From Escherichia coli (lineage in GTDB: Bacteria; Pseudomonadota; Gammaproteobacteria; Enterobacterales; Enterobacteriaceae): a stretch of 64,000 nucleotides of DNA. A model generated the notes under the pieces. The model made no database searches. It was given only the letters and a program-made list of their open reading frames with translations, and was not told where the DNA came from. The stretch is from the NCBI RefSeq assembly GCF_044324875.1, contig NZ_CP172187.1. The stretch is one strand, 5' to 3'. Of this stretch, positions 3,290 through 51,347 are shown piece by piece (within the stretch, counting starts at the first letter, position 1; the number at the start of each line of letters is the position of its first letter). The position numbers and the translations under genes are program-made.

Positions 3290-3650
3290 GACGGAGACGG
3301 GCGGGCAACCGCCCGTTTCTTTTCCGACAAAGGATGTCGCCGTGCTCCTCTTTTTACTGCGCCGGCTGACGCGGCGCGGCATAAACGCTGCCTGTGGTCA
3401 GTGTCCCGCGTCCGGCGGGCACGGGACGGGCGCTTTTACCGCTCCCGGCTGGCACCGGTGACAGTGTACGCCAGCCCGTCGCCCTTTTCTGATGAACGCC
3501 CTTCAAGCCGCTTTCGCGGCATAGCCTTGCCGTCAAAAAGACGACGGCTGCGGTATTCCACGGTCGGCCTGACCCGTTACCGGACGCGGTGAACAGCCCA
3601 CAGGCAGCGGGGAACGGGCACCACAGGGGTGCCCTCCCGGTGCCTTCTGT
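3290..3650. repeat. Leading-region repeat family A, copy 2
   Basis: Direct repeat of 1985-2340 with a few substitutions; ends at the RBS (AAGGAGG) of the methyltransferase gene at 3668. Confidence 0.8.
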
Positions 3651-3667
3651 AAGAGAAGGAGGCTTTT

Positions 3668-4351
3668 ATGTCCCGTTTTATCCTGGGTGACTGCGTGCGA
3701 GTTATGGCCACGTTTCCGGACAATGCTGTCGATTTCATCCTCACCGACCCGCCGTATCTCGTCGGTTTCCGTGACCGTTCCGGGCGCACCATTGCCGGTG
3801 ACGTTAACGATGACTGGTTGCAACCTGCCAGCAATGAGATGTACCGCGTACTCAAAAAAGACGCTCTGTTGGTCAGCTTCTACGGCTGGAACCGTATTGA
3901 CCGCTTTATGGCGGCCTGGAAACGCGCCGGATTCAGCGTGGCAGGGCACCTCGTGTTCACCAAAAACTACACATCCAAATCTGCGTATGTCGCGTACCGC
4001 CACGAATGCGCCTACATCCTGGCAAAAGGCCGTCCACGTCTGCCACAAAACCCGCTGCCGGACGTGCTGGGCTGGAAATATTCGGGCAATCGTCATCACC
4101 CGACGGAAAAGCCTGTTACCAGCCTGCAACCGCTGATTGAGAGCTTCACACACCCGAACGCAATTGTGCTGGACCCGTTTGCAGGCAGCGGCTCAACCTG
4201 CGTTGCCGCCCTCCAGTCCGGACGCCGGTATATCGGTATCGAGCTGCTTGAGCAGTATCACCGTGCCGGACAGCAACGACTGGCTGCCGTTCAACGGGCC
4301 ATGCAGCAGGGGGCCGCGAATGATGACTGGTTTATGCCGGAGGCTGCGTAA
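3668..4351 (+). CDS. Orphan DNA methyltransferase, beta-class (N6-adenine/N4-cytosine type; DPPY motif precedes the SAM-binding FAGSGST motif)
   Basis: 227-aa ORF with TDPPYLVGF near the N-terminus and DPFAGSGSTCVAA near the C-terminus; no adjacent restriction endonuclease gene. Confidence 0.85.
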   Translation: MSRFILGDCVRVMATFPDNAVDFILTDPPYLVGFRDRSGRTIAGDVNDDWLQPASNEMYRVLKKDALLVSFYGWNRIDRFMAAWKRAGFSVAGHLVFTKNYTSKSAYVAYRHECAYILAKGRPRLPQNPLPDVLGWKYSGNRHHPTEKPVTSLQPLIESFTHPNAIVLDPFAGSGSTCVAALQSGRRYIGIELLEQYHRAGQQRLAAVQRAMQQGAANDDWFMPEAA

Positions 4352-4573
4352 ATGAACTATGCCGGACACGAAAAACTTCGCGCCGAAGTGGCGGAGGTGG
4401 CCAACACCATGTGTGACCTTCGGGCCAGGCTGAACGATATGGAGCATCGCTGTCGTTTTGATTCCGATGTGCTTGTTGAACGCCTGACACGCCAGACGCT
4501 GTATCGCGCCAATCGCCTGTTTATGGAGGCGTATACCGAAATTCTTGAACTGGATGCGTGCTTCAAAGATTAA
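4352..4573 (+). CDS. Hypothetical small protein (73 aa)
   Basis: ATG abuts the methyltransferase stop; same strand as all leading-region genes. Confidence 0.5.
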   Translation: MNYAGHEKLRAEVAEVANTMCDLRARLNDMEHRCRFDSDVLVERLTRQTLYRANRLFMEAYTEILELDACFKD

Positions 4574-10650: not shown

Positions 10651-11280
10651 TTTTTCCTGCTGCTCTGATTCTGACTACTGCAGTGTTGTTCTGTCTGCCG
10701 GGCGCACCTTCGGCTCCCGGCTGCCTGGCGGCATCCGGTCGTCAGGCCCGACTCCGACAGGCAGCTGCTGGCGCACCTGCCAGTCTCCGCCGAACCCGCT
10801 GGCGCGGTTTCGGGCTGCCGCTACGGTCCGATGCGTGAAAACCCGGCTTGCAGCGACCGTTCCGGTCGCGCCGCCCCTGTCGCGCCGTGACCTGCGCTCC
10901 AGGCATCCCGGCAAAAAGACGCCGGGATGTAAGGCGCAACGCCGTTTCGCAAACCGCGCTTCACGTCGTTGCGGCGGGTCCCTGCCCGTTGTTGTGTCCG
11001 GTGCCATTCACCTGTTTAAGCCCCTGTCGCCGGGGGCTGATACAGCCACAACCTGCCGCACTGACTGTCCAGGGTAAATGAACAGCCCACAAAATTTTTT
11101 ACCCAAAACCCGGTAAAAAATTTTGCGTTCTGCCCAGGACAGGTGCGTCAGGCCGTGGCAGTGATGCCCCATGCGGCGAAGGTTCTCAAACAGGTGATGG
11201 TGAATACCGGAGGGAACAAAGAGCAGGTCCCCGCAAAACGTCAAAACCGCGGCTCCCGAAACTCAACAGATGATGGGGGC
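10651..11280. repeat. Leading-region repeat family B, copy 2, directly upstream of ssb
   Basis: Direct sequence identity with copies 1 and 3; the 3' end ...CGAAACTCAACAGATGATGGGGGCTGAAAAC is shared exactly with copy 3. Confidence 0.8.
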
Positions 11281-11308
11281 TGAAAACATCAACAGAAGGA
11301 GACACATC

Positions 11309-11347
11309 ATGGCAGTTCGTGGCATTAACAAGGTCATTCTTGTCGGT
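11309..11347 (+). CDS. ssb: Plasmid single-stranded DNA-binding protein, exon 1 (codons 1-13, MAVRGINKVILVG)
   Basis: ATG with RBS AAGGAG; the 13 codons are the canonical SSB N-terminus; the reading frame is interrupted by GTGCG at 11348. Confidence 0.8.
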
Positions 11348-11960
11348 GTGCGCCGTTGAAGCGCGGTGTTTTATGGAGTGTTGCCTGAAAAGCAACATGG
11401 CTTAGTGGTATAGCCATTGCATACTGTGGTTAGCCTTGCTTGGTAACAGGCTCGGAGATCCTGAAAAGGAGAGGTGAACATAGCATCCACAGAAAAGGGT
11501 GGTGAATATGGAAATCGTTATAAGTATCACCATTCAATGCAAGATGTATATGGATAAACTGGGTTTGTTGAAGTCGAGATCTATGTGGGAAACAGGAAAC
11601 CAATAACGCAGAACGATTGAAGCGTTATTCCCGTACTAGCACAAGAAATCCGTCCGACGTTGATTGTGACCACTCTAACGGGCCAGCTATTGATGAAATA
11701 GTTAAACGATCGAAAGACATCCTAAGTACATCGCATCTCCACACCGTGAAACTACGGGACTACCTAAACTGGATTTATACCCAGCATGGTAGCGGAGTCT
11801 CCATAGTACTCAAGGTCGGCCTGTAATGGGTTCCGGCAGTCCGCATTATACGGAAGCAGCAAAGGTATAAATCAACCGGAAGGAAGATGAAAGCCTCACA
11901 GTGCTGCGGGGAAGGGAGACAGTTGTTAGATACATCAATCTCTAAGAGGAGGGTTAGCCA

Positions 11961-13862
11961 ATGCTGCCTGATGAACTTGAGAAAAGATTAGATGGAATTG
12001 AGGATGCTTCAAAAAAAGGGTATCCAGTACGTAATCTATACAAAATTGCGTGTGAGCCCGGACTGTGGCTGCAAGCCTACGTGAATATACGGGCCAATGC
12101 AGGTGCACTGACTCAAGGTGTATCAACAGATACCATTGATGGCTTTTCTATCGAAAGAGCAGAGAAGCTGGCAAAAACATTGCGGAGTAGAGAATACGTA
12201 GCGAAACCTGTACGCAGAGTTCAGATCCCAAAAAAGGACGGAAAAACCAGACCGCTGGGGATTCCAGGTGGAGACGATAAACTGGCGCAAGAAGTAGCAA
12301 GAATTATTCTGGAAAGGGTTTATGAACCAGTATTCTCTGAACACTCTCATGGATTCAGACCAAAACGTTCGTGTGAAACTGCGCTCAGATCTATTCGTCC
12401 AGTCTGGAACGGAGTTAAATGGATCGTGGATGTTGATATCAAAGGTTTCTTTGACAATATCCCCCACAAACTATTGCTGAATACACTGGCAGAGAAAATT
12501 AAGGATAAGAATTTCCTGAAATTAATCGAACAGTGGCTGAAGGCAGGATATGTGGACAATTGGAAATACCATCGCTCATATTCTGGCACGCCACAAGGTG
12601 GGATAATTTCTCCCTTACTGGCAAATATATACCTCGACAAACTGGACCGTTTTGTAGAACAGAATTTAATTCCTGCATATACAAGCGGTACAAAACGAAG
12701 AGCGAATCCAGATATGAACAGGCTGGCCCATAAGATTCATAAACTACGAAAGAAAGTAGACGGTATGGCAACTGATTCTGAATCAGAAAAAGAAGCCATA
12801 AAGAAAGAAATTGAACGACTGCTTGAAGAAAAACGTTCTATACCATCTCAGGTCATGAACGATCCAAACTTCAGGCGTATGTACTATGTTCGATATGCTG
12901 ATGACTTCGTAATCGGTGTCATCGGCTCGAAGAAAGATGCTGAACATATATCAAGACAGGTCAGAAACTTTATTACTACTTCACTGGGATTGGAAGTTAA
13001 TGAAGCAAAGACCAGGATCCGCCATATCTCAGAAGGAGTTAATTTTTTAGGCTATGAAATCAGACAGGCAGATGCAAAGAAATTGCTGAAGCAGAAAATG
13101 CAAGGGCGGCACGCTCTCCGGAGATCCACCACAGGAATTGTGCAGCTCTTCGTTCCTGACAATATAGCCGCTAAATTTTGTCACCAAAAGAAATATGGCT
13201 GTTATGAGAATGTGAAGGCTGTACATCGTTCAAGTCTACAAAATCTCAGTGAAGCTGAAATTGTTCTGACTTTCAACGCGGAAATGCGCGGATTGGCGAA
13301 CTACTACAGTCTGGCGCTGGACATGAAATATAAATTATCAAAATTATATTTCATATGGCAAATAAGCCTTTTTAAGACCCTGGCGAATAAACGACGTAGT
13401 TCAGTGAATAAAGTCGCCAAATCGCTACGGCAAAATAATGGAGATCTGGCTATTACCGTTCAGGCCAAAAATGGATCCCGAAAGATTGAGGTTTTCAAAC
13501 TCAAACATGTCAATCGCAACCGAACAACGATTGTCGATACGGAACCGAGAACCGCACATATCACAACCCGCACAACAGAGATCATGCGTCGATTAGGGGC
13601 AAGGATCTGCGAGTATTGTGCGAAGACTGGGCGCTGCGAAGTACATCATGTCAGAAAGCTAAAAGACCTGAAGAAAGGTCGTAAGGCCGGATATAAACCC
13701 AGCTTGTGGCAACTAATGATGATCGCACGCCGCCGGAAAACGATGATTTTGTGCGCAAGTTGCCACGACAAGTTACATAGCGGAAAACTACCCGATTTGA
13801 GACAGGAAAAGGGAAGAATACTCCTGCAACCACCTGTCTCAAGCGGGGATTCTGCTAAATGA
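11961..13862 (+). CDS. Group II intron-encoded protein: reverse transcriptase, maturase (X) and HNH endonuclease domains
   Basis: 633 aa with RT motifs (LGIPGGDDKLAQE, SHGFRPKRSCETAL, FFDNIPH, GTPQGGIISPLLANIYL, YVRYADDFVIGV) and a C-terminal Cys/His HNH-like cluster (CEYCAKTGRCEVHHV...CASCHDKLH). Confidence 0.9.
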   Translation: MLPDELEKRLDGIEDASKKGYPVRNLYKIACEPGLWLQAYVNIRANAGALTQGVSTDTIDGFSIERAEKLAKTLRSREYVAKPVRRVQIPKKDGKTRPLGIPGGDDKLAQEVARIILERVYEPVFSEHSHGFRPKRSCETALRSIRPVWNGVKWIVDVDIKGFFDNIPHKLLLNTLAEKIKDKNFLKLIEQWLKAGYVDNWKYHRSYSGTPQGGIISPLLANIYLDKLDRFVEQNLIPAYTSGTKRRANPDMNRLAHKIHKLRKKVDGMATDSESEKEAIKKEIERLLEEKRSIPSQVMNDPNFRRMYYVRYADDFVIGVIGSKKDAEHISRQVRNFITTSLGLEVNEAKTRIRHISEGVNFLGYEIRQADAKKLLKQKMQGRHALRRSTTGIVQLFVPDNIAAKFCHQKKYGCYENVKAVHRSSLQNLSEAEIVLTFNAEMRGLANYYSLALDMKYKLSKLYFIWQISLFKTLANKRRSSVNKVAKSLRQNNGDLAITVQAKNGSRKIEVFKLKHVNRNRTTIVDTEPRTAHITTRTTEIMRRLGARICEYCAKTGRCEVHHVRKLKDLKKGRKAGYKPSLWQLMMIARRRKTMILCASCHDKLHSGKLPDLRQEKGRILLQPPVSSGDSAK

Positions 13863-13888
13863 GTTTATCCCCAATAAGCTAGCAATGG

Positions 13889-13926
13889 AGAGCCGTATGC
13901 ACTGAAAGGTGCACGTACGGTTCGGA
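13889..13926 (+). ncRNA. Group II intron domain V (catalytic hairpin)
   Basis: Matches the conserved domain V consensus as I recall it (GAGCCGUAUGC...GCACGUACGGUUC), about 80 nt from the 3' splice site. Confidence 0.7.
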
Positions 13927-14008
13927 GGGGGGGTAACGGTGATCTAACTCAAGATAAGCAGGACATATTCGCCATTTATCTTGAAAGACCACACGTACCC
14001 TACCCTAC

Positions 14009-14497
14009 CGTCTGGGAAAAGATCCGGAAGTCCGTTACATCCCAAACGGGGGCGCAGTGGCAAACCTGCAGGTGGCCACGTCAGAAAGCTGGCGCGACAA
14101 ACAGACGGGGGAGATACGGGAGCAGACAGAATGGCATCGCGTGGTGCTGTTCGGCAAGCTCGCGGAAGTGGCTGGTGAGTATCTGCGCAAGGGCGCGCAG
14201 GTCTACATCGAAGGTCAGCTTCGCACCCGTAGCTGGGAGGATAACGGTATCACCCGTTACGTCACCGAAATTCTTGTTAAGACCACGGGCACCATGCAGA
14301 TGCTGGGACGTGCCGCAGGTACTCAGACTCAGCCGGAAGAGGCGCAACAGTTCAGCGGTCAGCCTCAGCCGGAATCACAGCCGGAACCGAAAAAAGGAGG
14401 CGCGAAAACGAAAGGCCGTGGACGTAAGGCCGCGCAGCCGGAGCCTCAGCAGCCGTCTGAACCCGCGTATGACTTCGATGACGACATTCCGTTCTAA
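14009..14497 (+). CDS. ssb: Plasmid single-stranded DNA-binding protein, exon 2
   Basis: In frame with ORF 14057..14497 ([19 protein letters not shown]...DDDIPF, acidic SSB tail); upstream in-frame codons [17 protein letters not shown] continue the SSB OB-fold. Confidence 0.8.
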
Positions 14498-14849: not shown

Positions 14850-16807
14850 ATGTCAGTTACAGAGTCTAAGACAAAAACGGAGCGTAAATCCAGCCGTAAA
14901 CCTGCAAAAACGCAGGAAACTGCACTGTCTGCCCTGCTGGCGCAGACGGAGGAAGTGAGCGTGCCGCTGGATTCACTGATTAAATCACCGCTGAATGTGC
15001 GCACGGTGCCGTATTCTGCGGAGTCCGTCAGTGAACTGGCTGATTCCATTAAGGGAGTCGGCCTGCTGCAGAATCTGGTTGTTCATGCCCTGCCAGGTGA
15101 CCGTTACGGTGTCGCCGCAGGTGGTCGCCGACTGGCAGCACTCAACATGCTGGCAGAGCGTGACATCATTCAGGCTGACTGGCCTGTCCGCGTGAAAATT
15201 ATTCCGCAGGAGCTGGCGACGGCTGCATCGATGACCGAGAACGGTCATCGTCGGGATATGCACCCTGCCGAACAGATTGCCGGATTCCGCGCAATGGCGC
15301 AGGAAGGCAAAACACCTGCGCAAATCGGTGATTTGCTGGGCTATTCACCCCGCCATGTCCAGCGAATGCTGAAACTGGCTGACCTTGCGCCTGTCATCCT
15401 CGATGCGCTGGCAGAAGACCGCATCACCACCGAACACTGTCAGGCGCTGGCGCTGGAGAACGACACCGCGCGTCAGGTGCAGGTGTTTGAAGCCGCTGCC
15501 AGTCAGGATGGGGTGGAAAACCGGATGTGCGGGTTATCCGCAACCTGATTACGGAAAGTGAAGTGGCGGTGAAGGACAACACTAAATTTCGCTTTGTGGG
15601 GGCTGATGCTTTCTCGCCTGACGAACTGCGCACCGATTTGTTCAGCGATGACGGGGACGGTTATGTCGACCGCGTGGCGCTCGATGCCGCCCTGCTGGAA
15701 AAACTCCAGGTTGTTGCAGAGTCCCTTCGGGAAGCAGAAGGCTGGGAATGGTGCGCCGGGCGCATGGAGCCAGTCGGTGAGTGCCGTGAGGATGCCGGAA
15801 CATACCGCTGTCTGCCGGAGCCGGAAGCGGTGCTGACGGAGGCGGAAGAAGAACGCCTGAACGAACTGATGACGCGTTACGACGCGCTGGAAAACCAGTG
15901 TGAGGAATCCGACCTGCTGGAAGCAGAAATGAAGCTGATGCGCTGCATGGCGAAGGTCAGAGCGTGGACGCCGGAGATACGTGCCGGAAGCGGTGTGGTG
16001 GTGTCCTGGCGTTATGGCAACGTATGTGTCCAGCGTGGTGTGCAGTTGCGCAGTGAAGATGACGCGACTGACGACGCTGACCGCACGGAACAGGTGCAGG
16101 AGAAAGCGTCAGTGGAGGAAATCAGTCTGCCACTGCTGACGAAAATGTCTTCCGAACGCACGCTGGCAGTCCAGGCGGCACTGATGCAGCAACCGGACAA
16201 ATCCCTGACACTGCTGGCATGGACGCTCTGCCTGAATGTGTTTGGCAGCGGAGCGTACAGTAAACCAGCACAAATCAGCCTGGAATGTAAACATTATTCG
16301 CTGACCAGCGATGCGCCGTCAGGGAAGGAAGGTGCCGCATTCATGGCGCTGATGGCAGAAAAAGCCCGTCTTGCGGCCCTGTTACCGGAGGGATGGTCAC
16401 GGGACATGACGACATTCCTTTCACTCAGTCAGGAGGTGCTGTTATCCCTGCTCAGTTTCTGCACCGCGTGCAGCATCCACGGCGTTCAGACCCGCGAGTG
16501 TGGTCACACGTCACGCAGCCCGCTGGACACGCTGGAGAGCGCCATCGGTTTTCACATGCGCGACTGGTGGCAGCCGACAAAAGCAAACTTCTTCGGACAC
16601 CTGAAAAAGCCGCAGATTATCGCAGCCCTGAATGAGGCAGGACTGTCCGGTGCCGCACGGGACGCGGAGAAGATGAAGAAAGGCGATGCGGCTGAACATG
16701 CAGAGTTCCATATGAAAGACAACCGCTGGGTGCCTGGCTGGATGTGTGCACCACGTCCACAGACGGATACCACTGAACGCACTGATAACCTGGCTGATGC
16801 CGCCTGA
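14850..16807 (+). CDS. ParB-like nuclease-domain protein, apparently split by a frameshift into 14850..15548 and 15527..16807
   Basis: N-terminal part has ParB/Srx-like motifs (LQNLVVHALPGDRYGVAAGGRRLAALN, HTH-like region); the second ORF continues in another frame with a 22-nt overlap. Combined length (~650 aa) is that of intact homologues as I recall them. Confidence 0.6.
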
Positions 16808-18012: not shown

Positions 18013-18199
18013 TGCGGCAACAATCACACGGATTTCCCGTGAACGGTCTGAATGAGCGGATTATTTTCAGGGAAAGTGAGTGTGGTCAGCGTGCAGGTAT
18101 ATGGGCTATGATGTGCCCGGCGCTTGAGGCTTTCTGCCTCATGACGTGAAGGTGGTTTGTTGCCGTGTTGTGTGGCAGAAAGAAGATAGCCCCGTAGTA

Positions 18200-18270
18200 A
18201 GTTAATTTTCATTAACCACCACGAGGCATCCCTATGTCTAGTCCACATCAGGATAGCCTCTTACCGCGCT
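18200..18270 (-). ncRNA. sok: Sok-type antisense RNA of the hok/mok/sok locus; approximate position
   Basis: Placed by analogy with type I hok/sok systems, where the antisense overlaps the mok start region; exact ends not determinable by eye. Confidence 0.35.
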
Positions 18271-18446
18271 TTGCGCAAGGAGAAGAAGGCCATGAAACTA
18301 CCACGAAGTTCCCTTGTCTGGTGTGTGTTGATCGTGTGTCTCACACTGTTGATATTCACTTATCTGACACGAAAATCGCTGTGCGAGATTCGTTACAGAG
18401 ACGGACACAGGGAGGTGGCGGCTTTCATGGCTTACGAATCCGGTAA
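18234..18446 (+). CDS. mok: Mok/FlmC-like overlapping reading frame that couples hok translation
   Basis: 70-aa ORF overlapping hok in a different frame. Confidence 0.55.
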
Positions 18447-22211: not shown

Positions 22212-22334
22212 AAAAGAATTAAAAGTTGATTTGCTTCAAATAACAGGATTTTGATCTGGTTCAATTTGATGACAATTAACCGCATAAAGGTTATATTAAT
22301 TACGTGGTTAATGCCACGTTAAAAATTGAAACTG

Positions 22335-22415
22335 AAAATCGCCGATGCAGGGAGTTCAGACCTCCCTGCATCGACTGTCCATAGAATCCTTAACGGAGGT
22401 TCCTATGTGTGCGCT
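22335..22415 (-). ncRNA. finP: FinP antisense RNA (approximate)
   Basis: Two stem-loops in the traJ leader: hairpin 22341-22378 and a second hairpin at about 22381-22410 whose loop holds the traJ Shine-Dalgarno (AACGGAGG) and whose stem holds the start codon. Confidence 0.5.
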
Positions 22416-35711: not shown

Positions 35712-36350
35712 ATGAGCCGGAAAATATTTGTACTTTTTGCCCTGACAGCAGGACTGTTTATTTCTGCCCATGCTTCGGAAAATGTGAATACACCCGAAAA
35801 CCGCCAGTTCCTGAAGCAGCAGGAAACACTGAGTCAGCAGTTACGTGAAAAACCGGACACACAGCTGCAGGCATGGGCAGAACAGCAGGTCAGGGCGAAT
35901 CCCCTTCAGCATTCCGATAACCAGTTTCTCGATGAACTGGTCCGTAAACAGCAGGCTTCGCAGGGTGATAAACCACAGCAGGGTGCCCTGTATTTTGTGT
36001 CGTTTTCCATACCCGAAGAGGGGCTGAAACGGATGCTGGGTGAAACCCGGCACTACGGTATTCCGGCCACGCTGCGGGGCATGGTGAACAACGACCTGAA
36101 GACCACCGCTGAAGCCGTGCTGTCCCTGGTGAAAGACGGCGCGACTGATGGTGTTCAGATCGACCCGACGCTGTTTTCACAGTACGGCATTCGCAGCGTT
36201 CCGGCCCTGGTGGTGTTCTGCAGCCAGGGGCACGACATCATCCGGGGAAACCTGCGCGTCAGGCAGGCGCTGGAGAAAGTGGCCGCCACAGGAGACTGCC
36301 GGCAGGTGGCTCAGGGACTGCTGGACGGCACCGGGGATAAATCGCAATAA
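35712..36350 (+). CDS. trbC: TrbC
   Basis: ORF-track frame 35697..36350; ATG at 35712 gives a 212-aa protein with signal peptide (MSRKIFVLFALTAGLFISAHA). Confidence 0.85.
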   Translation: MSRKIFVLFALTAGLFISAHASENVNTPENRQFLKQQETLSQQLREKPDTQLQAWAEQQVRANPLQHSDNQFLDELVRKQQASQGDKPQQGALYFVSFSIPEEGLKRMLGETRHYGIPATLRGMVNNDLKTTAEAVLSLVKDGATDGVQIDPTLFSQYGIRSVPALVVFCSQGHDIIRGNLRVRQALEKVAATGDCRQVAQGLLDGTGDKSQ

Positions 36351-36406
36351 GTTTACCTGCAGGCTATTACCGGATTGACCCGGACATCCGTGCACTGGTG
36401 TCCGCG

Positions 36407-36718
36407 ATGAACGTGCATGGATTTCGTACATATGCGTCCTGTCAGGGGCATGGCTTCCCTGTTACGAAACTGCCGCCTTATATCGCCTTTTCCTGTCCGG
36501 TAAAAATGGCTGCCCTTCTGGAGCAGCGACTGCGGCAGGATGCTGAATCAGCAATACCACGTCTGACATGGGGATGGTCGGTGAAGGGGACTTTTAACAG
36601 TGATTTTCAGCTTTGCTTCCGGCTTCAGCCTGAAAGCCCTCATCACTGGTATCACCGGTACTGTCGCCGCTCACTGCGTGCAGACTTCAGGACGCTGGTC
36701 CGCTTACTGAATCCGTAA
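36407..36718 (+). CDS. Hypothetical Cys/His/Trp-rich protein (start uncertain)
   Basis: ORF-track frame 36398..36718; the frame stays open upstream of the first ATG. Confidence 0.4.
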   Translation: MNVHGFRTYASCQGHGFPVTKLPPYIAFSCPVKMAALLEQRLRQDAESAIPRLTWGWSVKGTFNSDFQLCFRLQPESPHHWYHRYCRRSLRADFRTLVRLLNP

Positions 36719-36742
36719 ATCTGTTCCCGTAAGGAGGCATTG

Positions 36743-37165
36743 ATGGCGCTGACAAAGAAGCAGCGGGAAAAACTGCGTATGAAATTCGGCGGTCGTTGTG
36801 CGTACTGCGGCTGTGAACTGCCGGAAAAAGGCTGGCATGCCGACCATGTTCAGGCGGTGCTCCGCAAGTCAGAGCAGTGCATGAAGGCTGCAGAAAAGCG
36901 CATTTTCAGGCTGAAATCCACCGGTGATGTTTTCAGACCGGAGGCCGACTGTCCGGAAAACCTCGTCCCGGCCTGTGCGCCGTGCAACCTGCTGAAAACA
37001 ACATATTCGCTGGAGATGTTCAGAACGCAGGTGTCCCTGCAGGTTGAACGGGGGCGAAGAAGCAGCGTGAATTTCAGGACCGCAGAACGGTTCGGGCTGA
37101 TTCAGGTGGTGAACAAACCAGTCGTGTTCTGGTTTGAGCAATATCAGAGGGAGAGTGAGGTATGA
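36743..37165 (+). CDS. HNH endonuclease
   Basis: CAYCGCEL...HADHV...CAPCNLLK motif set; ATG at 36743 follows AAGGAGG. Confidence 0.75.
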   Translation: MALTKKQREKLRMKFGGRCAYCGCELPEKGWHADHVQAVLRKSEQCMKAAEKRIFRLKSTGDVFRPEADCPENLVPACAPCNLLKTTYSLEMFRTQVSLQVERGRRSSVNFRTAERFGLIQVVNKPVVFWFEQYQRESEV

Positions 37166-39012
37166 AACGTCTTCTGCCATTGCTGCTGGGGCTGGCAGTC
37201 AGTGTGGCACAGGCTGACAGCAACAGTGATTACCGGGCGGGTTCTGATTTTGCCCGTCAGATTCAGGGGCAGGGTACAGGCAGTATTCAGGGCTTTAAGC
37301 CACAGGAGAGTATCCCCGGCTATAACGCGAATCCGGACGAGACAAAATATTACGGTGGAGTGACTGCCGGCGGGGATGGCGGCCTGAAAAATGACGGCAC
37401 CACGGAATGGGCGACCGGTGAAACCGGAAAAACTATCACAGAGTCATTCATGAACAAGCCGAAAGACATTCTTTCACCGGATGCGCCGTTTATCCAGACC
37501 GGCAGGGATGTGGTGAACCGGGCTGACAGCATTGTGGGAAACACCGGGCAGCAGTGCAGTGCGCAGGAGATAAACCGCAGTGAATTCACAAACTATACCT
37601 GTGAGCGGGACACGATGGTGGAGGAGTACTGCACACGGACTGCCAGTATCACCGGGGACTGGAAATACACGGATGAATATCGTGAGGTGACGATACCGCA
37701 CTCACAGTTCCAGTTCAGTATGAACGGGCTGAAACTGGTGTTCAGTGTCACGGCTCCGGTAACCGGTACAGTGGAAAGTGCATCATTGTCTGTATACGCC
37801 GCTTTTTTCTTCCTGAATTCTCGTTATACCTTCATGAATTCGACGTTCAATGTTGGCCTGGTAAACGGGCAGTCGGGTACTTTCCCCTTGTCCGGGGCGA
37901 CAGGTTTGCAGGTGACACAGGGGCAGGTTCTGACCGGTAGTGGCTGTACTGCAAACGGTAATTGCCTCCCGCACGGGAACGGTGACAGGAAAGTCTATGA
38001 ATCGCTTGTCAGTGGTGCTTCCACCTTTACGCTGAAACTCAGGATGAAGGTCCGTGATAAAGAATGGGTTCCCCGGGTGGAGTGGGTGGAGAGTTGTCCG
38101 TTTAATAAAGCGGATGGCGTGCTGAAAGGCACTGAGTGTTCAGAGCCGGGGGGTACGAAAACGGGTGTGATGGAAGGTAAACCCTGGAGCATCACACAGG
38201 CATGCTGGGCATACCGGGATAAATATGTCACACAGTCCGCAGATAACGGCACCTGTCAGAAATATGTCGATAATCCGGCCTGTACGCTGGCCTCACGTCA
38301 GTGCGCGTTTTATTCCGATGAGGGAATCTGTCTGCATGAGTATGCCACGTACTCCTGCGAGTCCAGAACATCAGGAAAAGTGATGGTCTGTGGTGGTGAT
38401 GTCTTCTGCCTTGACGGTGAATGCGATAAGGCACAGAGCGGAAAAAGCAGTGATTTTGGTGAGGCTGTATCACAGCTGGCTGCGCTTGCCGCCGCAGGTA
38501 AGGATGTTGCCGCCCTGAATGGTGTGGATGTCAGGGCTTTCACGGGCGAGGCGAAATTCTGCCGTAAGGCCGCAGCCGGCTTCAGTAACTGCTGTAAGGA
38601 TGGTGGCTGGGGTCAGGATGTGGGGCTGGCGAAGTGCAACAGTGAAGAAAAGGCACTGGGAAAGGCAAAGGACAACAAACTGACGGTGAGTGTGGGCGAG
38701 TTCTGTTCGAAAAAGGTACTCGGTGTCTGCCTGCAGAAAAAGCGCAGCTACTGCCAGTTTGATTCGAAACTGGCGCAGATAGTCCAGCAGCAGGGGCGTA
38801 ACGGGCAGCTGCGTATCGGGTTTGGCAGCGCCAAAAGTCCTGACTGCCGTGGAATAACCGTGGATGAACTACAGCGTATTAAGTTCGACCAGCTGGACTT
38901 CACTAACTTCTACGAAGACCTGATGAATAACCAGAAAATCCCGGACAGTGGCGTTCTGACGCAGAAAGTGAAAGAGCAGATTGCTGACCAGCTGAAGCAG
39001 GCAGGACAATAA
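37162..39012 (+). CDS. traN: TraN, outer-membrane mating-pair stabilisation protein
   Basis: 616 aa, signal peptide, Cys-rich. Confidence 0.9.
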   Translation: MKRLLPLLLGLAVSVAQADSNSDYRAGSDFARQIQGQGTGSIQGFKPQESIPGYNANPDETKYYGGVTAGGDGGLKNDGTTEWATGETGKTITESFMNKPKDILSPDAPFIQTGRDVVNRADSIVGNTGQQCSAQEINRSEFTNYTCERDTMVEEYCTRTASITGDWKYTDEYREVTIPHSQFQFSMNGLKLVFSVTAPVTGTVESASLSVYAAFFFLNSRYTFMNSTFNVGLVNGQSGTFPLSGATGLQVTQGQVLTGSGCTANGNCLPHGNGDRKVYESLVSGASTFTLKLRMKVRDKEWVPRVEWVESCPFNKADGVLKGTECSEPGGTKTGVMEGKPWSITQACWAYRDKYVTQSADNGTCQKYVDNPACTLASRQCAFYSDEGICLHEYATYSCESRTSGKVMVCGGDVFCLDGECDKAQSGKSSDFGEAVSQLAALAAAGKDVAALNGVDVRAFTGEAKFCRKAAAGFSNCCKDGGWGQDVGLAKCNSEEKALGKAKDNKLTVSVGEFCSKKVLGVCLQKKRSYCQFDSKLAQIVQQQGRNGQLRIGFGSAKSPDCRGITVDELQRIKFDQLDFTNFYEDLMNNQKIPDSGVLTQKVKEQIADQLKQAGQ

Positions 39013-39035
39013 GGTATGGAAAATAACCGGGGGAA

Positions 39036-39284
39036 ATGATGAAGGTCATATTCACGTCGAACCGTTTTATTGATTTTCTTATCCGGCTTTTGATTACAGC
39101 GATTGTCATTTCCCCGGTAATTATCTGGTCGTGGGATACGGTAAAAGAAACCACGGCAGACGGGATGCCTGCCGCTGCTTTCGTTATCCTTTACTCCGGT
39201 GTGCTCCTGTTTATTCTGTATTTTTGTTTTTCTGCCCTGACCTGCAGAAAACCGATGAAAGAAAAAATGATGAAAGGAATGAAG
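39036..39284 (+). CDS. trbE: TrbE-like small membrane protein; reading frame continues into traF without a stop
   Basis: Upstream portion of ORF-track frame 39036..40028; no in-frame stop separates it from the traF start at 39285. Confidence 0.45.
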
Positions 39285-40028
39285 ATGAATAAAGCATTAC
39301 TGCCACTGTTACTCTGCTGCTTTATTTTTCCGGCGTCAGGGAAAGATGCAGGCTGGCAGTGGTATAACGAGAAAATAAATCCGAAGGAAAAAGAAAATAA
39401 ACCTGTACCTGCAGCCCCCCGTCAGGAGCCGGATATTATGCAGAAACTGGCCGCGCTGCAGACGGCAACAAAGCGGGCGCTGTACGAAGCCATTCTGTAT
39501 CCCGGCGTGGATAATTTTGTGAAATATTTCCGGCTGCAGAATTACTGGACTCAGCAGGCCGGGCTTTTCACCATGAGTGCTAAAAAAGCTATGCTGGCAC
39601 ATCCCGAACTGGACTATAACCTGCAGTACAGCCATTACAACGGCACGGTCCGGAACCAGCTGGCGGCAGACCAGGCGCAGCAGCGACAGGCCATTGCGAA
39701 ACTGGCTGAACACTACGGCATCATGTTCTTTTACCGGGGGCAGGACCCCATCGACGGGCAGCTGGCGCAGGTCATTAATGGCTTCAGGGATACCTATGGT
39801 CTGAGTGTTATTCCCGTTTCCGTGGATGGTGTGATTAATCCGCTGTTGCCGGATTCCCGGACTGACCAGGGGCAGGCGCAGCGCCTCGGCGTGAAATATT
39901 TCCCGGCCATGATGCTGGTTGACCCGAAACAGGGCAGTGTTCGCCCGTTATCATACGGCTTTATTTCGCAGGACGACCTGGCAAAACAATTCCTGAACGT
40001 TTCTGAAGATTTTAAACCCAATTTTTAA
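39285..40028 (+). CDS. traF: TraF, thioredoxin-fold pilus assembly protein
   Basis: Internal ATG giving MNKALLPLLLCCFIFPASG..., 247 aa. Confidence 0.85.
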   Translation: MNKALLPLLLCCFIFPASGKDAGWQWYNEKINPKEKENKPVPAAPRQEPDIMQKLAALQTATKRALYEAILYPGVDNFVKYFRLQNYWTQQAGLFTMSAKKAMLAHPELDYNLQYSHYNGTVRNQLAADQAQQRQAIAKLAEHYGIMFFYRGQDPIDGQLAQVINGFRDTYGLSVIPVSVDGVINPLLPDSRTDQGQAQRLGVKYFPAMMLVDPKQGSVRPLSYGFISQDDLAKQFLNVSEDFKPNF

Positions 40029-40043
40029 TCGCGGATTTGATTT

Positions 40044-40391
40044 ATGAGTGAAGATTATTTGAAACTGTTTACAGGTGTTGTTCTGTTAATATTTGTCATT
40101 ATTGCCGGTTATTTCTTTTCTGAGCGTAATGACAGGAAAATGTTTCTCCTGGGCTCACTGGTTTTCCTTGTTATTAATATCGCGTGTTTATATGTGCTGA
40201 CTGCCAGTCTCTGGTTTCTGTGTGGTGCAATTATGAATCAGGGCGCAGCAATGGTTGTTCCAATGGTTATTGGCTCATTACCGAACGTTACGAGCTTCGA
40301 CGGGTTCAGAAGAATATTTATCTGTATTATGTTGTCATCAGTATGGTCCGGAGTGATGTGGTTTTTTATAAGGGGGCTTATGACAGGCTAA
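40044..40391 (+). CDS. trbA: TrbA
   Basis: 115-aa membrane protein in canonical position. Confidence 0.75.
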   Translation: MSEDYLKLFTGVVLLIFVIIAGYFFSERNDRKMFLLGSLVFLVINIACLYVLTASLWFLCGAIMNQGAAMVVPMVIGSLPNVTSFDGFRRIFICIMLSSVWSGVMWFFIRGLMTG

Positions 40392-47915: not shown

Positions 47916-48704
47916 ATGACATCAGACAATATCGCTGAATATGTTGGTGAGAATAATCAATTTACTGAGAAGCCTGTAACTGAATACCCCCCGGTGATAC
48001 AGGATAATACAGTGACCACTAAAGACTATCTGTACAGCAATAATATTGATACTGACCTTTTAGTGGTTATCGGAGGGCTTATTGTTATATTGTTTCTCAT
48101 GATGCTTATCATGTACTTTATTAATTCTCTCAGGCATAAGGAATTAACTGAAATACTGACAAAAATATCTTTTCCTGAAAAATCCGGGAGCAATTCGCTT
48201 AAACCGGAAGCGGTCAGCTGTAATTTGTTGTCCCTGTGTGTGCTGGCACCGGTATTCTGTACACCCAAAAAGCTGGCTGAAGTTTCCAGGGAGATCATCG
48301 TGGCGAGTGCGCAGGAGATTGCATGGACGCCGGGGAGCAGTCGTATTGATGGTCATCAGGGCGAAAATATTACCTGGTCTCTGTCGTCACAGTCTCATGC
48401 CGATAAATACGAGCTCATCAATAAAACGTCCCGTGTTTCTCCTGACAGTGGCCGTTTTTATGAACCGGACACAGTTCTGGATCACCGTGAACGGGTACGC
48501 CTTTTTATTCAGATCCAGTTTCCGCATGGGAGTGACTGGTCTGAAGTATTGCGCCTGACTGACATTGTTGCAGAGAAGGTCTCTTCCGGCAGGACTGCAG
48601 GTGCGTATTCCGCTCTATTCGATCACGGATTGGCATCGAAGTCCGATCAGCGATTCGCATCCATTCGATCAACCGGGAACTTAACTTTTTCTACCGCTTT
48701 TTAA
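47916..48704 (+). CDS. Hypothetical single-pass membrane protein (262 aa) inserted between traT and traD; 3' end runs into the IS terminal repeats
   Basis: ORF-track frame 47850..48704; ATG at 47916; TM helix LLVVIGGLIVILFLMMLIMYFI; the last ~30 codons overlap the IS21-type terminal repeats beginning at about 48602. Confidence 0.5.
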   Translation: MTSDNIAEYVGENNQFTEKPVTEYPPVIQDNTVTTKDYLYSNNIDTDLLVVIGGLIVILFLMMLIMYFINSLRHKELTEILTKISFPEKSGSNSLKPEAVSCNLLSLCVLAPVFCTPKKLAEVSREIIVASAQEIAWTPGSSRIDGHQGENITWSLSSQSHADKYELINKTSRVSPDSGRFYEPDTVLDHRERVRLFIQIQFPHGSDWSEVLRLTDIVAEKVSSGRTAGAYSALFDHGLASKSDQRFASIRSTGNLTFSTAF

Positions 48705-49456
48705 CGCGTTTTTTCGCTGCTTTCCACTACCGGGGGATTTTTCCTCAGTGACTCTCCCTGAAGGACCACTCGGTGTGAGTTATGTACCAGTCTGTCCAGG
48801 ATGGCATCTGCTGTTGTTGGGTTCTCCATCAGACCATGCCATTTATCTACCGGGAACTGGCTTACCACTATCGTGCTGCTTTGTCCGTAACGATCCTCTA
48901 TGAGCTCCAGAAGGTCATTACACTGGGCGTTACTTAACTGTTCCAGCCCCAGATCGTCCAGGATTAGAACCTGTATTTTTTGCAACTGTTTCAGATATTT
49001 CAGCCAGCTGCCATCAACACGTCCCTGAGCCAGTTGTTCCAGTAATCGCCCGGTTCTACAGTACCGGACGCTGTGTTTCTGTCGACATGCCTGTTCGCCC
49101 AGCGCATTGGCTATCCAGCTCTTGCCACATCCTGTCGGACCGGTTATCAGCAGGTTTTTCCTGTGGGTTATGTAGTGGCCGTTCAGCAGTTCTCTCATCT
49201 GTTCAGCCCGCAGACCTCTTGAGGCCGGATAGCGCAGCCCTTCCGGTGTTGCCTGGTATTTCAGGCCGGCATTTTTTCTCAACCGTGCCACACGGCTGTT
49301 TTCCCTGCTCAGAAGCTCGTCATCAACCAGCAGCGTCAGCCTTTCCTCGAACGACAGTTCGTCGTAGGTCTGAGGCGTTTCCCGCTGCCGTATCAGGCTC
49401 CCGGCCATCGCCGGGAGTTTCAGTTGGGTCAGTTTGTTTAACAGGTTATCACTCAT
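48701..49456 (-). CDS. istB: IstB-like AAA+ ATPase transposition helper
   Basis: ORF-track frame 48701..49699; internal start MSDNLL...; Walker A GPTGCGKSW and Walker B LILDDLG. Confidence 0.8.
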   Translation of the reverse strand: MSDNLLNKLTQLKLPAMAGSLIRQRETPQTYDELSFEERLTLLVDDELLSRENSRVARLRKNAGLKYQATPEGLRYPASRGLRAEQMRELLNGHYITHRKNLLITGPTGCGKSWIANALGEQACRQKHSVRYCRTGRLLEQLAQGRVDGSWLKYLKQLQKIQVLILDDLGLEQLSNAQCNDLLELIEDRYGQSSTIVVSQFPVDKWHGLMENPTTADAILDRLVHNSHRVVLQGESLRKNPPVVESSEKTR

Positions 49457-49472
49457 ACTGTTGTTCCTTCTG

Positions 49473-51119
49473 TCAGTGGTAGTAGCCCGGACCACGCAGG
49501 TTTTCATGCTCTGAAGCATATGCCGGATGTTGTTCGCCCTGGCGGGATAATGGAAGCTCCAGGTTCTCCCGATGGTGACGCAGCAGATTGTCGATAAAGC
49601 GTCTGTCAGGGGCGTTATAGTGCAGGGCAACGTAACAGGCCTTTTCCAGCCGTTCCGGGCCGTATTTTTTCTGAAGTGCCAGCAGCCCCAGAACTGCACG
49701 ATAAGCCAGTTCCGGATGGGGTTTTGCCTTCAGCATGGATTCAACCACCCGGCCTGTGGACGGGCCCGTACGTTTTCCCTGCTCGATCAGGCGTTCCGGT
49801 GTCCATGTCCCGTGCTGCCGGTGGCGCTCTGGCATGTGAAGCGGATTGGTTGTGTGTTTATATTCATGTGTGCTGCGCGGATGTTGCGCCACACACTGCC
49901 CCTTGTGCCAGAGCTGTACCACCGACTGCCCCGCCTTCAGTGACAGACGCTGACCGACCAGTTCGTGTGGAACGGAGTACCAGTGACGGGCATATTCAAC
50001 GTGGTAGTCAGGGCCAACCTTCACAGCTTTGTATTCCGTGTATTCATAAGGTGCCAGAGGCAGCGGAGAGAGTGCTGGCGCATCCAGTATGCGGAAGCGT
50101 TCTGCACGGGTTTGATTGCCGTACCCCTTCATTGGCCGGTTATTCATGTCTGTCAGTAACTCCCTAAGGCGCGCATTCAGCGCCCTGAGCGTGTGGAAGG
50201 TTTCATTACGGATGCGGGCAAGAAGCCATCGTTCAACGATGAGGACGCCGTTTTCTGCTTTTGGTTTATCTTTAGGTTTGCGTGGTCGGGCCGGGATGAT
50301 AACCGTGCCATAGTGCTCAGCCAGTGCCTGATAACTGTCGTTGATGACAGGCTCATATCGATCGGCCTTTTTCACTGCGCTTCTGAGGTTATCGGGGATG
50401 AGCAGCTTCGGTACGCCGCCCAGGAAGGTCAGGCAACGGCTGTGGGCATTTAACCATGACATCATGTCCTGACCTTCGCACGCTTCAACGTAGGTATAGT
50501 TGGACGCCCCCATTACGGCCACGAAGATTGCCACGCGGCGTATCTCACCGGTGTCCGGATTAATAACAGGAACCGTAGGACCACAGAAGTCGATAAAAAG
50601 CTTTTCGCCGGCACGATGCTCCTGGCGCATGGAGAGACGTCGCGTTTTTTTCCACTCCCGGTAGCAACGGCAGAAGTGCGAGTATCCCATCGCTTTGTTA
50701 CCCGCCTGTGCCTTGTATTCCATCCACAACAGTTGCCGCGTCACACCTGGTTTTCTCATTTCCGTATCGAAGTACAACATGTCAGGCATTACAAGCTCTG
50801 ATGCAAAGGTGTCTTTGGGCGGAAAAATGAGTTTCTCCAGCGTGTCATGGGATATATCAGCAGGTAATGGCCATGACAGAGAAGAGGCTTTGAAGCGGGC
50901 AAGAACCTCAAAAACGGTTGAGGCGCTGATGTGTAACGTCAGTCCGATACAACGGTTAGTCAGCTTCTTGTCGAACTTGAGCTGAAGGATCTTAAAACAG
51001 GTTTCCATAGTGCTCCTGGATTTTCTCTTTCTGGACATTGACGTCTCCACTGGTTTAAACACGGCAATGGAGACTGTGGTGAAAAGAGTTAATTCCCGGA
51101 GTGACTGGCAGGATGCCAA
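49473..51119 (-). CDS. istA: IstA-like transposase (start uncertain)
   Basis: 548-aa ORF whose 3' end overlaps istB; HTH-like N-terminus; two-gene arrangement diagnostic of the IS21 family. Confidence 0.75.
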   Translation of the reverse strand: MASCQSLRELTLFTTVSIAVFKPVETSMSRKRKSRSTMETCFKILQLKFDKKLTNRCIGLTLHISASTVFEVLARFKASSLSWPLPADISHDTLEKLIFPPKDTFASELVMPDMLYFDTEMRKPGVTRQLLWMEYKAQAGNKAMGYSHFCRCYREWKKTRRLSMRQEHRAGEKLFIDFCGPTVPVINPDTGEIRRVAIFVAVMGASNYTYVEACEGQDMMSWLNAHSRCLTFLGGVPKLLIPDNLRSAVKKADRYEPVINDSYQALAEHYGTVIIPARPRKPKDKPKAENGVLIVERWLLARIRNETFHTLRALNARLRELLTDMNNRPMKGYGNQTRAERFRILDAPALSPLPLAPYEYTEYKAVKVGPDYHVEYARHWYSVPHELVGQRLSLKAGQSVVQLWHKGQCVAQHPRSTHEYKHTTNPLHMPERHRQHGTWTPERLIEQGKRTGPSTGRVVESMLKAKPHPELAYRAVLGLLALQKKYGPERLEKACYVALHYNAPDRRFIDNLLRHHRENLELPLSRQGEQHPAYASEHENLRGPGYYH

Positions 51120-51347
51120 TCAATGATCGGAAGCATGCCAAATCGTGATCGATTGTGATGCCAAACTGTGATCGGAGATGGATGCCAAATCATGATCGAT
51201 TCGAATGCCAAACTGCGATCGATTCAGATGCCATTTTGCAGCAGGCGGGTATCACCACCGGCATACAGGGTACACCTGGTCTGTTTCTGTGAATTAACCC
51301 CACATCATCCTTTTCTGCCCTGTTCCAGATTTTCCCGGAGTTTCATC

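What the first reader, a model, noticed from the sequence alone, without database searches (positions are those of the whole stretch)
39036..40028. trbE and traF lie in one continuous reading frame
No in-frame stop separates the small TrbE-like membrane segment from the traF start at 39285, so a TrbE-TraF fusion, an internal traF initiation, or a lost stop codon are all possible.
Basis: seen in the sequence. Interest (0 to 1): 0.25.

Follow-up and report, generated by a model that had tools for sequence, protein, structure and literature searches.

The report
Four-base deletion fuses trbE to traF
A 4-base deletion in the small accessory gene trbE of this F-like plasmid shifts its reading frame into the next gene, traF, making one 330-codon ORF; this is an ordinary frameshift allele that RefSeq already flags as a pseudogene.

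Summary
Window 39036..40028 (+) is one uninterrupted 330-codon ORF with a TrbE domain (aa 12-67) and a complete TraF (aa 84-330).

It is not the reference state. In F, R100 and about 99.8% of F-like plasmids, trbE is a separate 85-codon gene. Its TAA stop lies inside an 8-nt ATGAATAA overlap with traF, and the traF frame is closed by a TGA 16 codons upstream of its ATG.

The window lacks 4 bp. The closest intact allele reads CC-CTGA-CTGA-CC, and the window has one CTGA (39237..39240). This looks like slipped-strand loss of one repeat unit. Both stop triplets are still present (TGA 39238..39240, TAA 39290..39292), but neither is now in the frame being read.

The allele is real. It occurs in 6 complete plasmids in PLSDB (6 of 3413 matching records) and 6 in E. 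coli RefSeq, seven distinct records in all. The exact 329-aa product is on hundreds of draft contigs, always on the same 616-aa-TraN backbone.

RefSeq annotates "TrbE, frameshifted" plus a normal 247-aa traF. That TraF is identical to R100 TraF and keeps its own Shine-Dalgarno sequence and ATG.

I infer that TraF supply is unaffected. Any TrbE'-TraF read-through product should place the TraF signal peptide correctly for signal-peptidase cleavage. Low interest.

The parts
39036..40028 (+). Continuous 330-codon ORF, the trbE'-traF fusion frame. PGAP and GenBank start it at the second ATG (39039), giving 329 aa.
   Evidence: The exact 329-aa product is in public databases as AYW28424.1, named 'TraF'.
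39039..39292 (+). trbE pseudogene as RefSeq annotates it in the near-identical plasmid pTB-nb3: 254 nt, 'frameshifted'. Codons 1-69 (both hydrophobic segments and the whole Pfam TrbE core) are intact.
   Evidence: (locus coordinate + 1 = window coordinate)
39237..39240 (+). Single CTGA unit marking the deletion junction. The closest intact allele has CTGACTGA (as does F); R100-type alleles have CTGACTGG. Four bases are missing here.
   Evidence: alignments; junction check across 21 loci
39238..39240 (+). TGA that closes the traF frame 16 codons upstream of the ATG in intact plasmids. It is still present here but lies 47 nt upstream of the ATG, so it is out of frame.
   Evidence: plus direct reading
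39243..39284 (+). Fourteen codons of former untranslated traF-frame sequence, now read as a linker (CRKPMKEKMMKGMK). With traF codons 1-3 (MNK) this forms a stretch of aa 70-86 with net charge +6. It replaces the acidic TrbE tail (GLQK.DERKNDERNEDE, net charge -3).
39273..39279 (+). traF Shine-Dalgarno sequence AAAGGAA, 5 nt before the ATG, identical to F and R100.
   Evidence: duplex with the 16S 3' end, -5.6 kcal/mol
39285..40028 (+). traF: 247 codons plus stop. Same RefSeq protein accession (WP_001030371.1) in pTB-nb3, which matches window 38950-40100 at 100%, and in R100. Signal peptide is MNKALLPLLLCCFIFPASG, followed by mature KDAG...
39290..39292 (+). TAA that terminates trbE in intact plasmids, inside the ATGAATAA overlap. 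It is still present but no longer in the frame read from the trbE start.

Best explanation
This is a lineage-specific frameshift allele of trbE, a small accessory inner-membrane protein gene of the F-type transfer operon. One unit of a two-unit tandem repeat (CTGA)2 near the 3' end of trbE was lost, most likely by replication slippage. The resulting shift moves translation, after TrbE codon 69, into the frame of the downstream gene traF. The deletion lies between the TGA that normally closes the traF frame upstream and the TAA that normally ends trbE, so neither stop is read and the two genes form one 330-codon ORF.

Expected consequences (inferred, not shown):
(i) TraF, which is essential for pilus assembly, is still made from its own unchanged Shine-Dalgarno sequence and ATG at 39285.
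(ii) Ribosomes starting at the strong trbE start make a TrbE'-linker-preTraF polypeptide. Its topology would be N-in, TM1, a short acidic periplasmic loop, TM2, then a +6 cytoplasmic linker. That places the TraF signal peptide as an N-in/C-out third hydrophobic segment with its Ala-x-Gly site facing the periplasm, so leader peptidase should still release normal mature TraF.
(iii) Only the 16-residue acidic tail of TrbE is lost.

The net effect is a near-neutral pseudogenisation or tail swap of a dispensable gene. It is not a new functional architecture.
For: SHOWN:
- The ORF is continuous and carries both domains.
- There is a 4-bp gap relative to F, R100 and pNDM5_020007, and trbE and traF are separate overlapping genes in those plasmids.
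- The closest intact allele (NZ_CP027554, also with a 616-aa TraN) matches the 95-nt junction probe exactly apart from the 4 bp and reads CTGACTGA.
- The allele is in 6 of 3413 PLSDB plasmids and 6 of 2783 complete E. coli RefSeq records, from China, Japan, Switzerland and a US FDA reference strain, from chicken and human hosts.
- The exact 329-aa product is on 346 contigs / 453 index blocks, and in all 10 places shown it lies behind the same 616-aa TraN. This rules out a sequencing error and points to one origin.
- RefSeq annotates 'TrbE, frameshifted' plus a normal 247-aa traF.
- The traF protein in pTB-nb3, which matches window 38950-40100 at 100%, has the same accession as R100 TraF.
- The SD sequence is unchanged.
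- None of the best 120 of 389 TraF-homologue cluster representatives covers more than 76% of the fused query, so no other fused architecture appears.
- trbE carries an independent frameshift (a 1-bp deletion) in another plasmid, as expected for a dispensable gene.
- Hydropathy and charge distribution support the proposed topology.
- pGZM7d, which carries the allele, reached transconjugants at 2.3e-4 (PMC11067769).

FROM KNOWLEDGE:
- trbE insertion mutants of F transfer normally (Maneewannakul, Kathir & Ippen-Ihler 1992, J Mol Biol 225:299). The citation was verified; the content is from memory.
- TraF is a periplasmic protein with a cleaved 19-residue signal peptide (Wu et al. 1988, J Bacteriol 170:3633; from memory).
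Against: No expression data exist for this allele. Whether the fusion protein accumulates, is cleaved, or interferes with TraF-TraH interaction is inferred only.

The pGZM7d transfer result is not a clean test. pGZM7d was recovered only together with a second conjugative IncFII plasmid, pGZM7e, under double selection, and pGZM7e could have supplied TraF or TrbE in trans.

The topology argument rests on a simple hydropathy and positive-inside calculation, not a dedicated predictor.

Ribosomes reading through from trbE could partly occlude the traF start and change TraF stoichiometry.

The window's own plasmid also has an IS21-family insertion just upstream of traD, so its transfer proficiency is uncertain for unrelated reasons.
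Confidence: 0.88

Rival explanations
1. Normal reference architecture: in F-like plasmids generally, trbE and traF share one frame and traF simply initiates internally.
For: In intact plasmids the traF frame is open for 16 codons upstream of the ATG and contains several in-frame ATGs.
Against: F, R100, pNDM5_020007 and NZ_CP027554 all have 4 more bp, a separate 258-nt trbE ending at TAA, and a TGA in the traF frame 16 codons upstream of the ATG. More than 99% of matching plasmids align to the junction probe with the 4-bp gap.
Confidence: 0.01
2. Sequencing or assembly artefact: the missing 4 bp is an error in this one record.
For: The near-identical plasmid pTB-nb3 carries many 'frameshifted' annotations, which can indicate a noisy long-read assembly.
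Against: The same junction occurs in seven distinct complete plasmid records from different laboratories and countries. It is also in all 10 draft or metagenome contigs fetched for the exact 329-aa product, which is indexed in 453 blocks. The change is a 4-bp loss outside any homopolymer, which is not a typical long-read error.
Confidence: 0.01
3. Selected functional fusion: TrbE'-TraF is a new membrane-anchored form of TraF that this plasmid lineage uses, for example to tether TraF at the inner membrane or to tie TraF synthesis to trbE translation.
For: The allele persists in a widespread lineage of hundreds of contigs, with recombinationally different downstream trbA/artA regions. The TrbE core and all of TraF are intact. 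A carrier plasmid was recovered in transconjugants.
Against: The allele is confined to one backbone. None of the best 120 of 389 TraF-homologue cluster representatives covers more than 76% of the fused query, so no second fused architecture is seen. The traF SD/ATG and signal-peptidase site are retained, so normal TraF is still expected. The 14-residue linker is simply the old untranslated leader read in frame. Because trbE is dispensable, persistence is expected without selection.
Confidence: 0.06
4. Switchable or recoded locus: the (CTGA)n repeat acts as a phase-variable switch, or the A6 run at 39262..39267 supports ribosomal or transcriptional slippage that restores the TrbE tail or mixes the two frames.
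For: The deletion is exactly one unit of a tandem tetranucleotide. An A6 run lies 20 nt downstream of the junction. A -1 slip there would restore the ...KNDERNEDE* tail.
Against: Two repeat units are far too few for useful switching rates, and one remaining unit cannot expand by slippage. GAA-AAA-ATG is not a canonical X XXY YYZ heptamer in the frame being read, and no downstream stimulatory structure was looked for. All carriers share one backbone, which fits a single event rather than repeated switching.
Confidence: 0.03

Closest known systems
trbE-traF of plasmid F (NC_002483: 80848..81105 and 81098..81841) and R100 (NC_002134: 66863..67120 and 67113..67856)
   Same: [quoted passage not shown] About 97-98% nucleotide identity. 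TrbE residues 1-69 are nearly identical. The traF protein accession in pTB-nb3, which is 100% identical to window 38950-40100, is the same as in R100. The traF SD/ATG is the same, and the ATGAATAA sequence is present.
   Different: The references have CTGACTGA or CTGACTGG where the window has CTGA. In the references trbE is a separate 85-codon gene overlapping traF by 8 nt in a different frame. In the window the two form one ORF.
RefSeq pseudogene 'conjugal transfer protein TrbE, frameshifted' in pTB-nb3 (CQP61_RS32485) and pGF4-A (ACHP5D_RS27305), and GenBank AYW28424.1 (329-aa 'TraF')
   Same: Identical sequence across the junction, and the same allele.
   Different: None. This is the same feature already in public annotation, interpreted either as a pseudogene plus traF (RefSeq) or as a long TraF (GenBank and gene callers).
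Independent trbE frameshift in the ETEC-2264 plasmid (NZ_CP023351, CJU63_RS26635)
   Same: trbE is inactivated by a small deletion while traF is annotated as a normal 744-nt (247-codon) gene with a protein accession. This shows trbE decay recurs.
   Different: It is a 1-bp deletion early in the gene (around codon 29), upstream of the TGA in the traF frame, so it should truncate TrbE rather than fuse it to TraF (I did not translate it).

Membership tests
TraF, type-F pilin-assembly protein (Pfam PF13728) | Full-length match to the TraF profile above the curated cutoff | tested here: met
   234.5 bits against a cutoff of 23, profile positions 1-224 of 224. The traF protein in pTB-nb3, 100% identical to the window here, has the same accession as R100 TraF, WP_001030371.1.
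TraF, type-F pilin-assembly protein (Pfam PF13728) | N-terminal Sec signal peptide and periplasmic location | tested here: inconclusive
   The sequence has an n-region (MNK), a 12-residue hydrophobic core, and PASG followed by KD, which fits the -3/-1 rule. No dedicated predictor or experiment was used. In the fused product this signal would be internal.
TraF, type-F pilin-assembly protein (Pfam PF13728) | Own translation start (SD plus ATG) in the conserved position after trbE | tested here: met
   AAAGGAA lies 5 nt upstream of ATG 39285, identical to F and R100.
TrbE of F-like plasmids (Pfam PF11100) | Match to the TrbE profile above the curated cutoff, with two hydrophobic segments | tested here: met
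   53.4 bits against a cutoff of 25, aa 12-67. Hydrophobic cores are centred at aa 17-26 and 50-64.
TrbE of F-like plasmids (Pfam PF11100) | Intact ~85-codon gene ending at the TAA inside ATGAATAA, with the acidic C-terminal tail | tested here: not met
   The 4-bp deletion after codon 69 replaces the tail and bypasses the stop. RefSeq flags it as frameshifted.
Natural TrbE-TraF fusion protein as a recurrent architecture | Fused proteins present in several independent lineages | tested here: not met
   None of the best 120 of 389 TraF-homologue cluster representatives covers more than 76% of the fused query. All carriers of the exact 329-aa protein that were inspected share the 616-aa-TraN backbone.
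Programmed ribosomal frameshift or phase-variable repeat | Canonical slippery heptamer in frame with a stimulatory structure, or a long tandem repeat tract with copy-number variation among close relatives | tested here: not met
   Only 1 or 2 CTGA units are seen across the loci. By inspection, GAA-AAA-ATG is not an X XXY YYZ site in the frame being read. No RNA structure was searched for.

The most novel reading that the evidence does not exclude
The TrbE'-TraF read-through polypeptide is actually made and matters. It could be a three-segment membrane precursor whose internal TraF signal peptide is cleaved by leader peptidase, so that traF output is driven by the strong trbE start instead of by termination-reinitiation at ATGAATAA. 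Alternatively, an uncleaved inner-membrane-tethered TraF could alter pilus assembly in this poultry- and human-associated IncFII lineage.
Probability: 0.06. Interest if true: 0.35.

Novelty: already known. Interest (0 to 1): 0.1.

Why it matters
The main value is for annotation. Gene callers and GenBank report a 329-aa "TraF" for this allele, while RefSeq reports a trbE pseudogene plus a 247-aa TraF, and users comparing TraF lengths may be misled.

It also adds natural-population evidence that trbE, or at least its acidic tail, is dispensable. The allele has spread to hundreds of isolates on several continents, and a second, independent trbE frameshift exists.

If the fusion protein were shown to be processed, it would be a tidy natural example of leader-peptidase cleavage of an internal signal sequence. 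Nothing here challenges current understanding of F-type conjugation.

Tried and rejected
Alignment with F and R100 rejects it.
- Considered a sequencing error. Rejected because the allele recurs in independent assemblies.
- Looked for other fused TrbE+TraF proteins with one large protein search. No fused representative appeared among the best 120 of 389 clusters. The fused protein itself is hidden in a 90% cluster whose representative is a TraN, so cluster-level searches under-report it.
- Looked for published transfer data on carrier plasmids. Only pGZM7d had any, and it is confounded by co-transfer with pGZM7e.
- Tried to retrieve explicit text on trbE dispensability (Frost 1994 review, Wu 1988). 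Those papers are not held, and the reviews that are held only cite Maneewannakul 1992. The statement therefore rests on memory.
- The promoter and terminator scan of 38800..40200 found no more than shuffled sequence gives.
- Minus-strand ORFs inside traF (for example 39336..39713, 125 aa) were not pursued. They overlap a gene whose product is 100% conserved with R100 TraF and have no support.
- Tried to identify the window's exact source. The tra region is identical to pTB-nb3, but the leading region and an IS differ, and no complete E. coli RefSeq record matches the first 20 kb at more than 97%.

Full report
**1. Observation**

The window between 39036 and 40028 on the + strand is a single ORF of 330 codons. 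Its product matches Pfam TrbE (PF11100) at aa 12-67 and Pfam TraF (PF13728) at aa 106-320.

The conventional traF start (ATG 39285, MNKALLPLLL...) is codon 84 of this ORF. The nearest in-frame stop upstream of it is TAA at 39024, before the trbE start.

The surrounding genes are those of a classical F-type transfer operon: traN (37162..39012, 616 aa), trbA, an artA-like ORF on the minus strand, traQ and trbB.

**2. What the reference plasmids show**

In F (NC_002483), R100 (NC_002134) and a typical modern IncF plasmid (pNDM5_020007), trbE is annotated as a separate 258-nt gene (85 codons plus stop). It overlaps traF by 8 nt.

Alignment shows these plasmids carry four more bases than the window at one point. 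They read CCCTGA-CTGA-CCTGCAG (F) or CCCTGA-CTGG-CCTGCAG (R100, pNDM5), against CCCTGA-CCTGCAG in the window.

In the references, trbE reads ...SALT(G/D)LQK.DERK.DERNEDE and stops at the TAA inside ATGAATAA. The traF frame is closed by a TGA 16 codons upstream of its ATG.

The continuous frame is a real deviation.

**3. Cause**

The closest intact allele found is in NZ_CP027554, which also lies behind a 616-aa TraN. It matches the 95-nt junction probe exactly apart from the four bases, and it reads CC-CTGA-CTGA-CC, a perfect two-unit tandem repeat. The window has one unit, at 39237..39240. Loss of one unit by slipped-strand mispairing is the simplest mechanism; this is inference.

A 4-bp loss shifts the frame by one. 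After TrbE codon 69, translation enters the traF frame.

Both relevant stop triplets are still physically present:
- TGA at 39238..39240, which closes the traF frame in intact plasmids.
- TAA at 39290..39292, which ends trbE in intact plasmids.

The deletion lies between them, so neither is read. Nothing was "lost" except phase.

**4. Is it real, and how common is it?**

A 95-nt probe across the junction matches at 100% over its full length in 6 of 3413 PLSDB plasmids and in 6 of 2783 complete E. coli RefSeq records. Five records are in both lists, so there are seven distinct records. Almost all other records align with the 4-bp gap.

Carriers come from chickens in China, chicken meat in Switzerland, a Japanese isolate and a human FDA-ARGOS strain.

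The exact 329-aa product (starting at the second ATG) is recorded on 346 contigs and in 453 index blocks. In the 10 places shown, it always follows the same 616-aa TraN, while the downstream trbA/artA region varies. All of these loci have the deleted junction.

Over 22 kb of tra DNA the carriers are 98.3-100% identical to the window, and the next-best plasmids are about 94% identical.

The allele is therefore genuine, arose once, and has been inherited and spread on one tra backbone.

**5. Existing annotation**

RefSeq (PGAP) annotates the stretch corresponding to window 39039..39292 as "conjugal transfer protein TrbE, frameshifted" (pseudogene). It annotates traF as a normal 247-codon gene.

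The GenBank version and automatic gene callers instead report the 329-aa ORF under the name TraF.

The feature is thus already in public records, with two conflicting interpretations.

**6. Likely consequences (inferred)**

*traF.* The traF Shine-Dalgarno sequence (AAAGGAA, 5 nt from the ATG) and start codon are unchanged from F and R100. The traF protein annotated in pTB-nb3, which matches window 38950-40100 at 100%, carries the same RefSeq accession as R100 TraF. TraF should therefore still be made independently.

*The read-through product.* The trbE start has a strong SD (GGGGGA, -8.6 kcal/mol), so a read-through TrbE'-TraF polypeptide is probably also made. Simple hydropathy and charge analysis gives this layout:
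- N-terminus, charge +2
- hydrophobic segment 1, aa 12-33
- acidic 11-residue loop, charge -2
- hydrophobic segment 2, aa 45-69
- linker CRKPMKEKMMKGMKMNK, charge +6
- TraF signal-peptide core ALLPLLLCCFIF
- PASG, then KDAG...

By the positive-inside rule, the linker stays in the cytoplasm. The TraF signal sequence then inserts N-in/C-out, which is the orientation of a normal signal peptide. Its Ala-x-Gly site would be exposed to leader peptidase, so mature TraF identical to wild type could still be released.

*TrbE.* TrbE keeps its entire conserved core and loses only its 16-residue acidic tail.

*Dispensability of trbE.* From the literature (from memory; the citation was verified), trbE insertion mutants of F show no transfer defect (Maneewannakul et al. 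1992). A second, independent trbE frameshift, in an ETEC plasmid, fits with this.

*Transfer data.* One carrier, pGZM7d, was recovered in transconjugants at 2.3e-4. It was recovered only together with another conjugative IncFII plasmid under double selection (PMC11067769), so this is weak support.

**7. Rivals**

- The "normal architecture" and "sequencing error" readings are refuted by the alignments and by recurrence of the allele.
- A selected functional fusion is not excluded but is unsupported. No TrbE+TraF fusion appears among the best 120 of 389 TraF-homologue cluster representatives. The linker is merely the former leader read in frame, and persistence is expected for a neutral change in a dispensable gene.
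- Phase variation or programmed frameshifting is unlikely. There are at most two repeat units, and no canonical slippery site lies in the frame being read.
- The promoter and terminator scan of the region found nothing beyond chance.

**8. Verdict**

The explanation is an ordinary 4-bp frameshift deletion that pseudogenises, or swaps the tail of, trbE and incidentally fuses its frame to traF.

It is already annotated in RefSeq. Interest is low; the residual interest is in annotation consistency and in a possible natural case of internal signal-peptide processing.

**9. Context and things noticed in passing**

- The window is not identical to any complete record searched. Its tra region equals pTB-nb3, but the leading region differs.
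- It carries an IS21-family element at 48602..51240, with a 5-bp GCAGG target duplication, about 100 nt upstream of traD.
- It carries a group II intron at about 11.25-14.05 kb.
- A ParB-like gene is split by a 1-bp deletion near 15495.
- The IS insertion could affect transfer proficiency independently of trbE.

Noticed in passing
window 48602..51240 (TSD GCAGG at 48597..48601 and 51241..51245): An IS21-family element on the minus strand (istA-like ORF 49473..51119, istB-like ORF 48701..49699). It is absent from the otherwise identical pTB-nb3 tra region. It is inserted in the ORF between traT and traD, about 100 nt upstream of traD, and may be polar on traD/traI/traX.
   Followed up: partly
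window ~11250..14050 (+): A group II intron in the plasmid leading region. Its intron-encoded protein (11961..13862) has RVT_1, maturase and HNH domains. Rfam Intron_gpII (domain V/VI) matches at 13888..14008. The intron is absent from pTB-nb3.
   Followed up: partly
window 14850..16807 (+): The ParB/Spo0J-like leading-region gene (one 652-aa ORF in pTB-nb3) is split into 232-aa and 426-aa ORFs by a 1-bp deletion near 15495. This is another frameshift in an accessory gene.
   Followed up: partly
L023 (NZ_CP023351, ETEC-2264 plasmid), locus 245..501: An independent trbE frameshift: a 1-bp deletion, AATTATC to AATATC, around codon 29. RefSeq annotates it as a pseudogene. This shows that trbE decay recurs in F-like plasmids.
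   Followed up: partly
protein P0001 (329 aa), cluster 1: The fused 329-aa TrbE'-TraF protein is filed in a 90%-identity cluster whose representative and most listed members are 616-aa TraN proteins. Cluster-representative searches therefore do not reveal it. This is probably a clustering artefact.
   Followed up: no
L011-L013 versus L014-L020, about 3500..4400 in each locus: Downstream of the fused ORF, carriers fall into two types. One has trbA (115 aa) plus an artA-like minus-strand ORF, as in the window. The other has short 31-78-aa ORFs instead. This indicates recombination or replacement at trbA/artA within the lineage.
   Followed up: no
window 22302..22411 and 18118..18294: The expected regulatory RNAs are present: the traJ 5' UTR with antisense FinP, and the sok antitoxin RNA of hok/sok. 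Nothing unusual was seen.
   Followed up: no
window 36347..37165 (+): Two extra ORFs lie between trbC and traN (a 123-aa hypothetical protein and a 140-aa HNH endonuclease in the pTB-nb3 annotation). F does not have them. They accompany the 616-aa TraN in all carriers of the deletion allele that were inspected.
   Followed up: no
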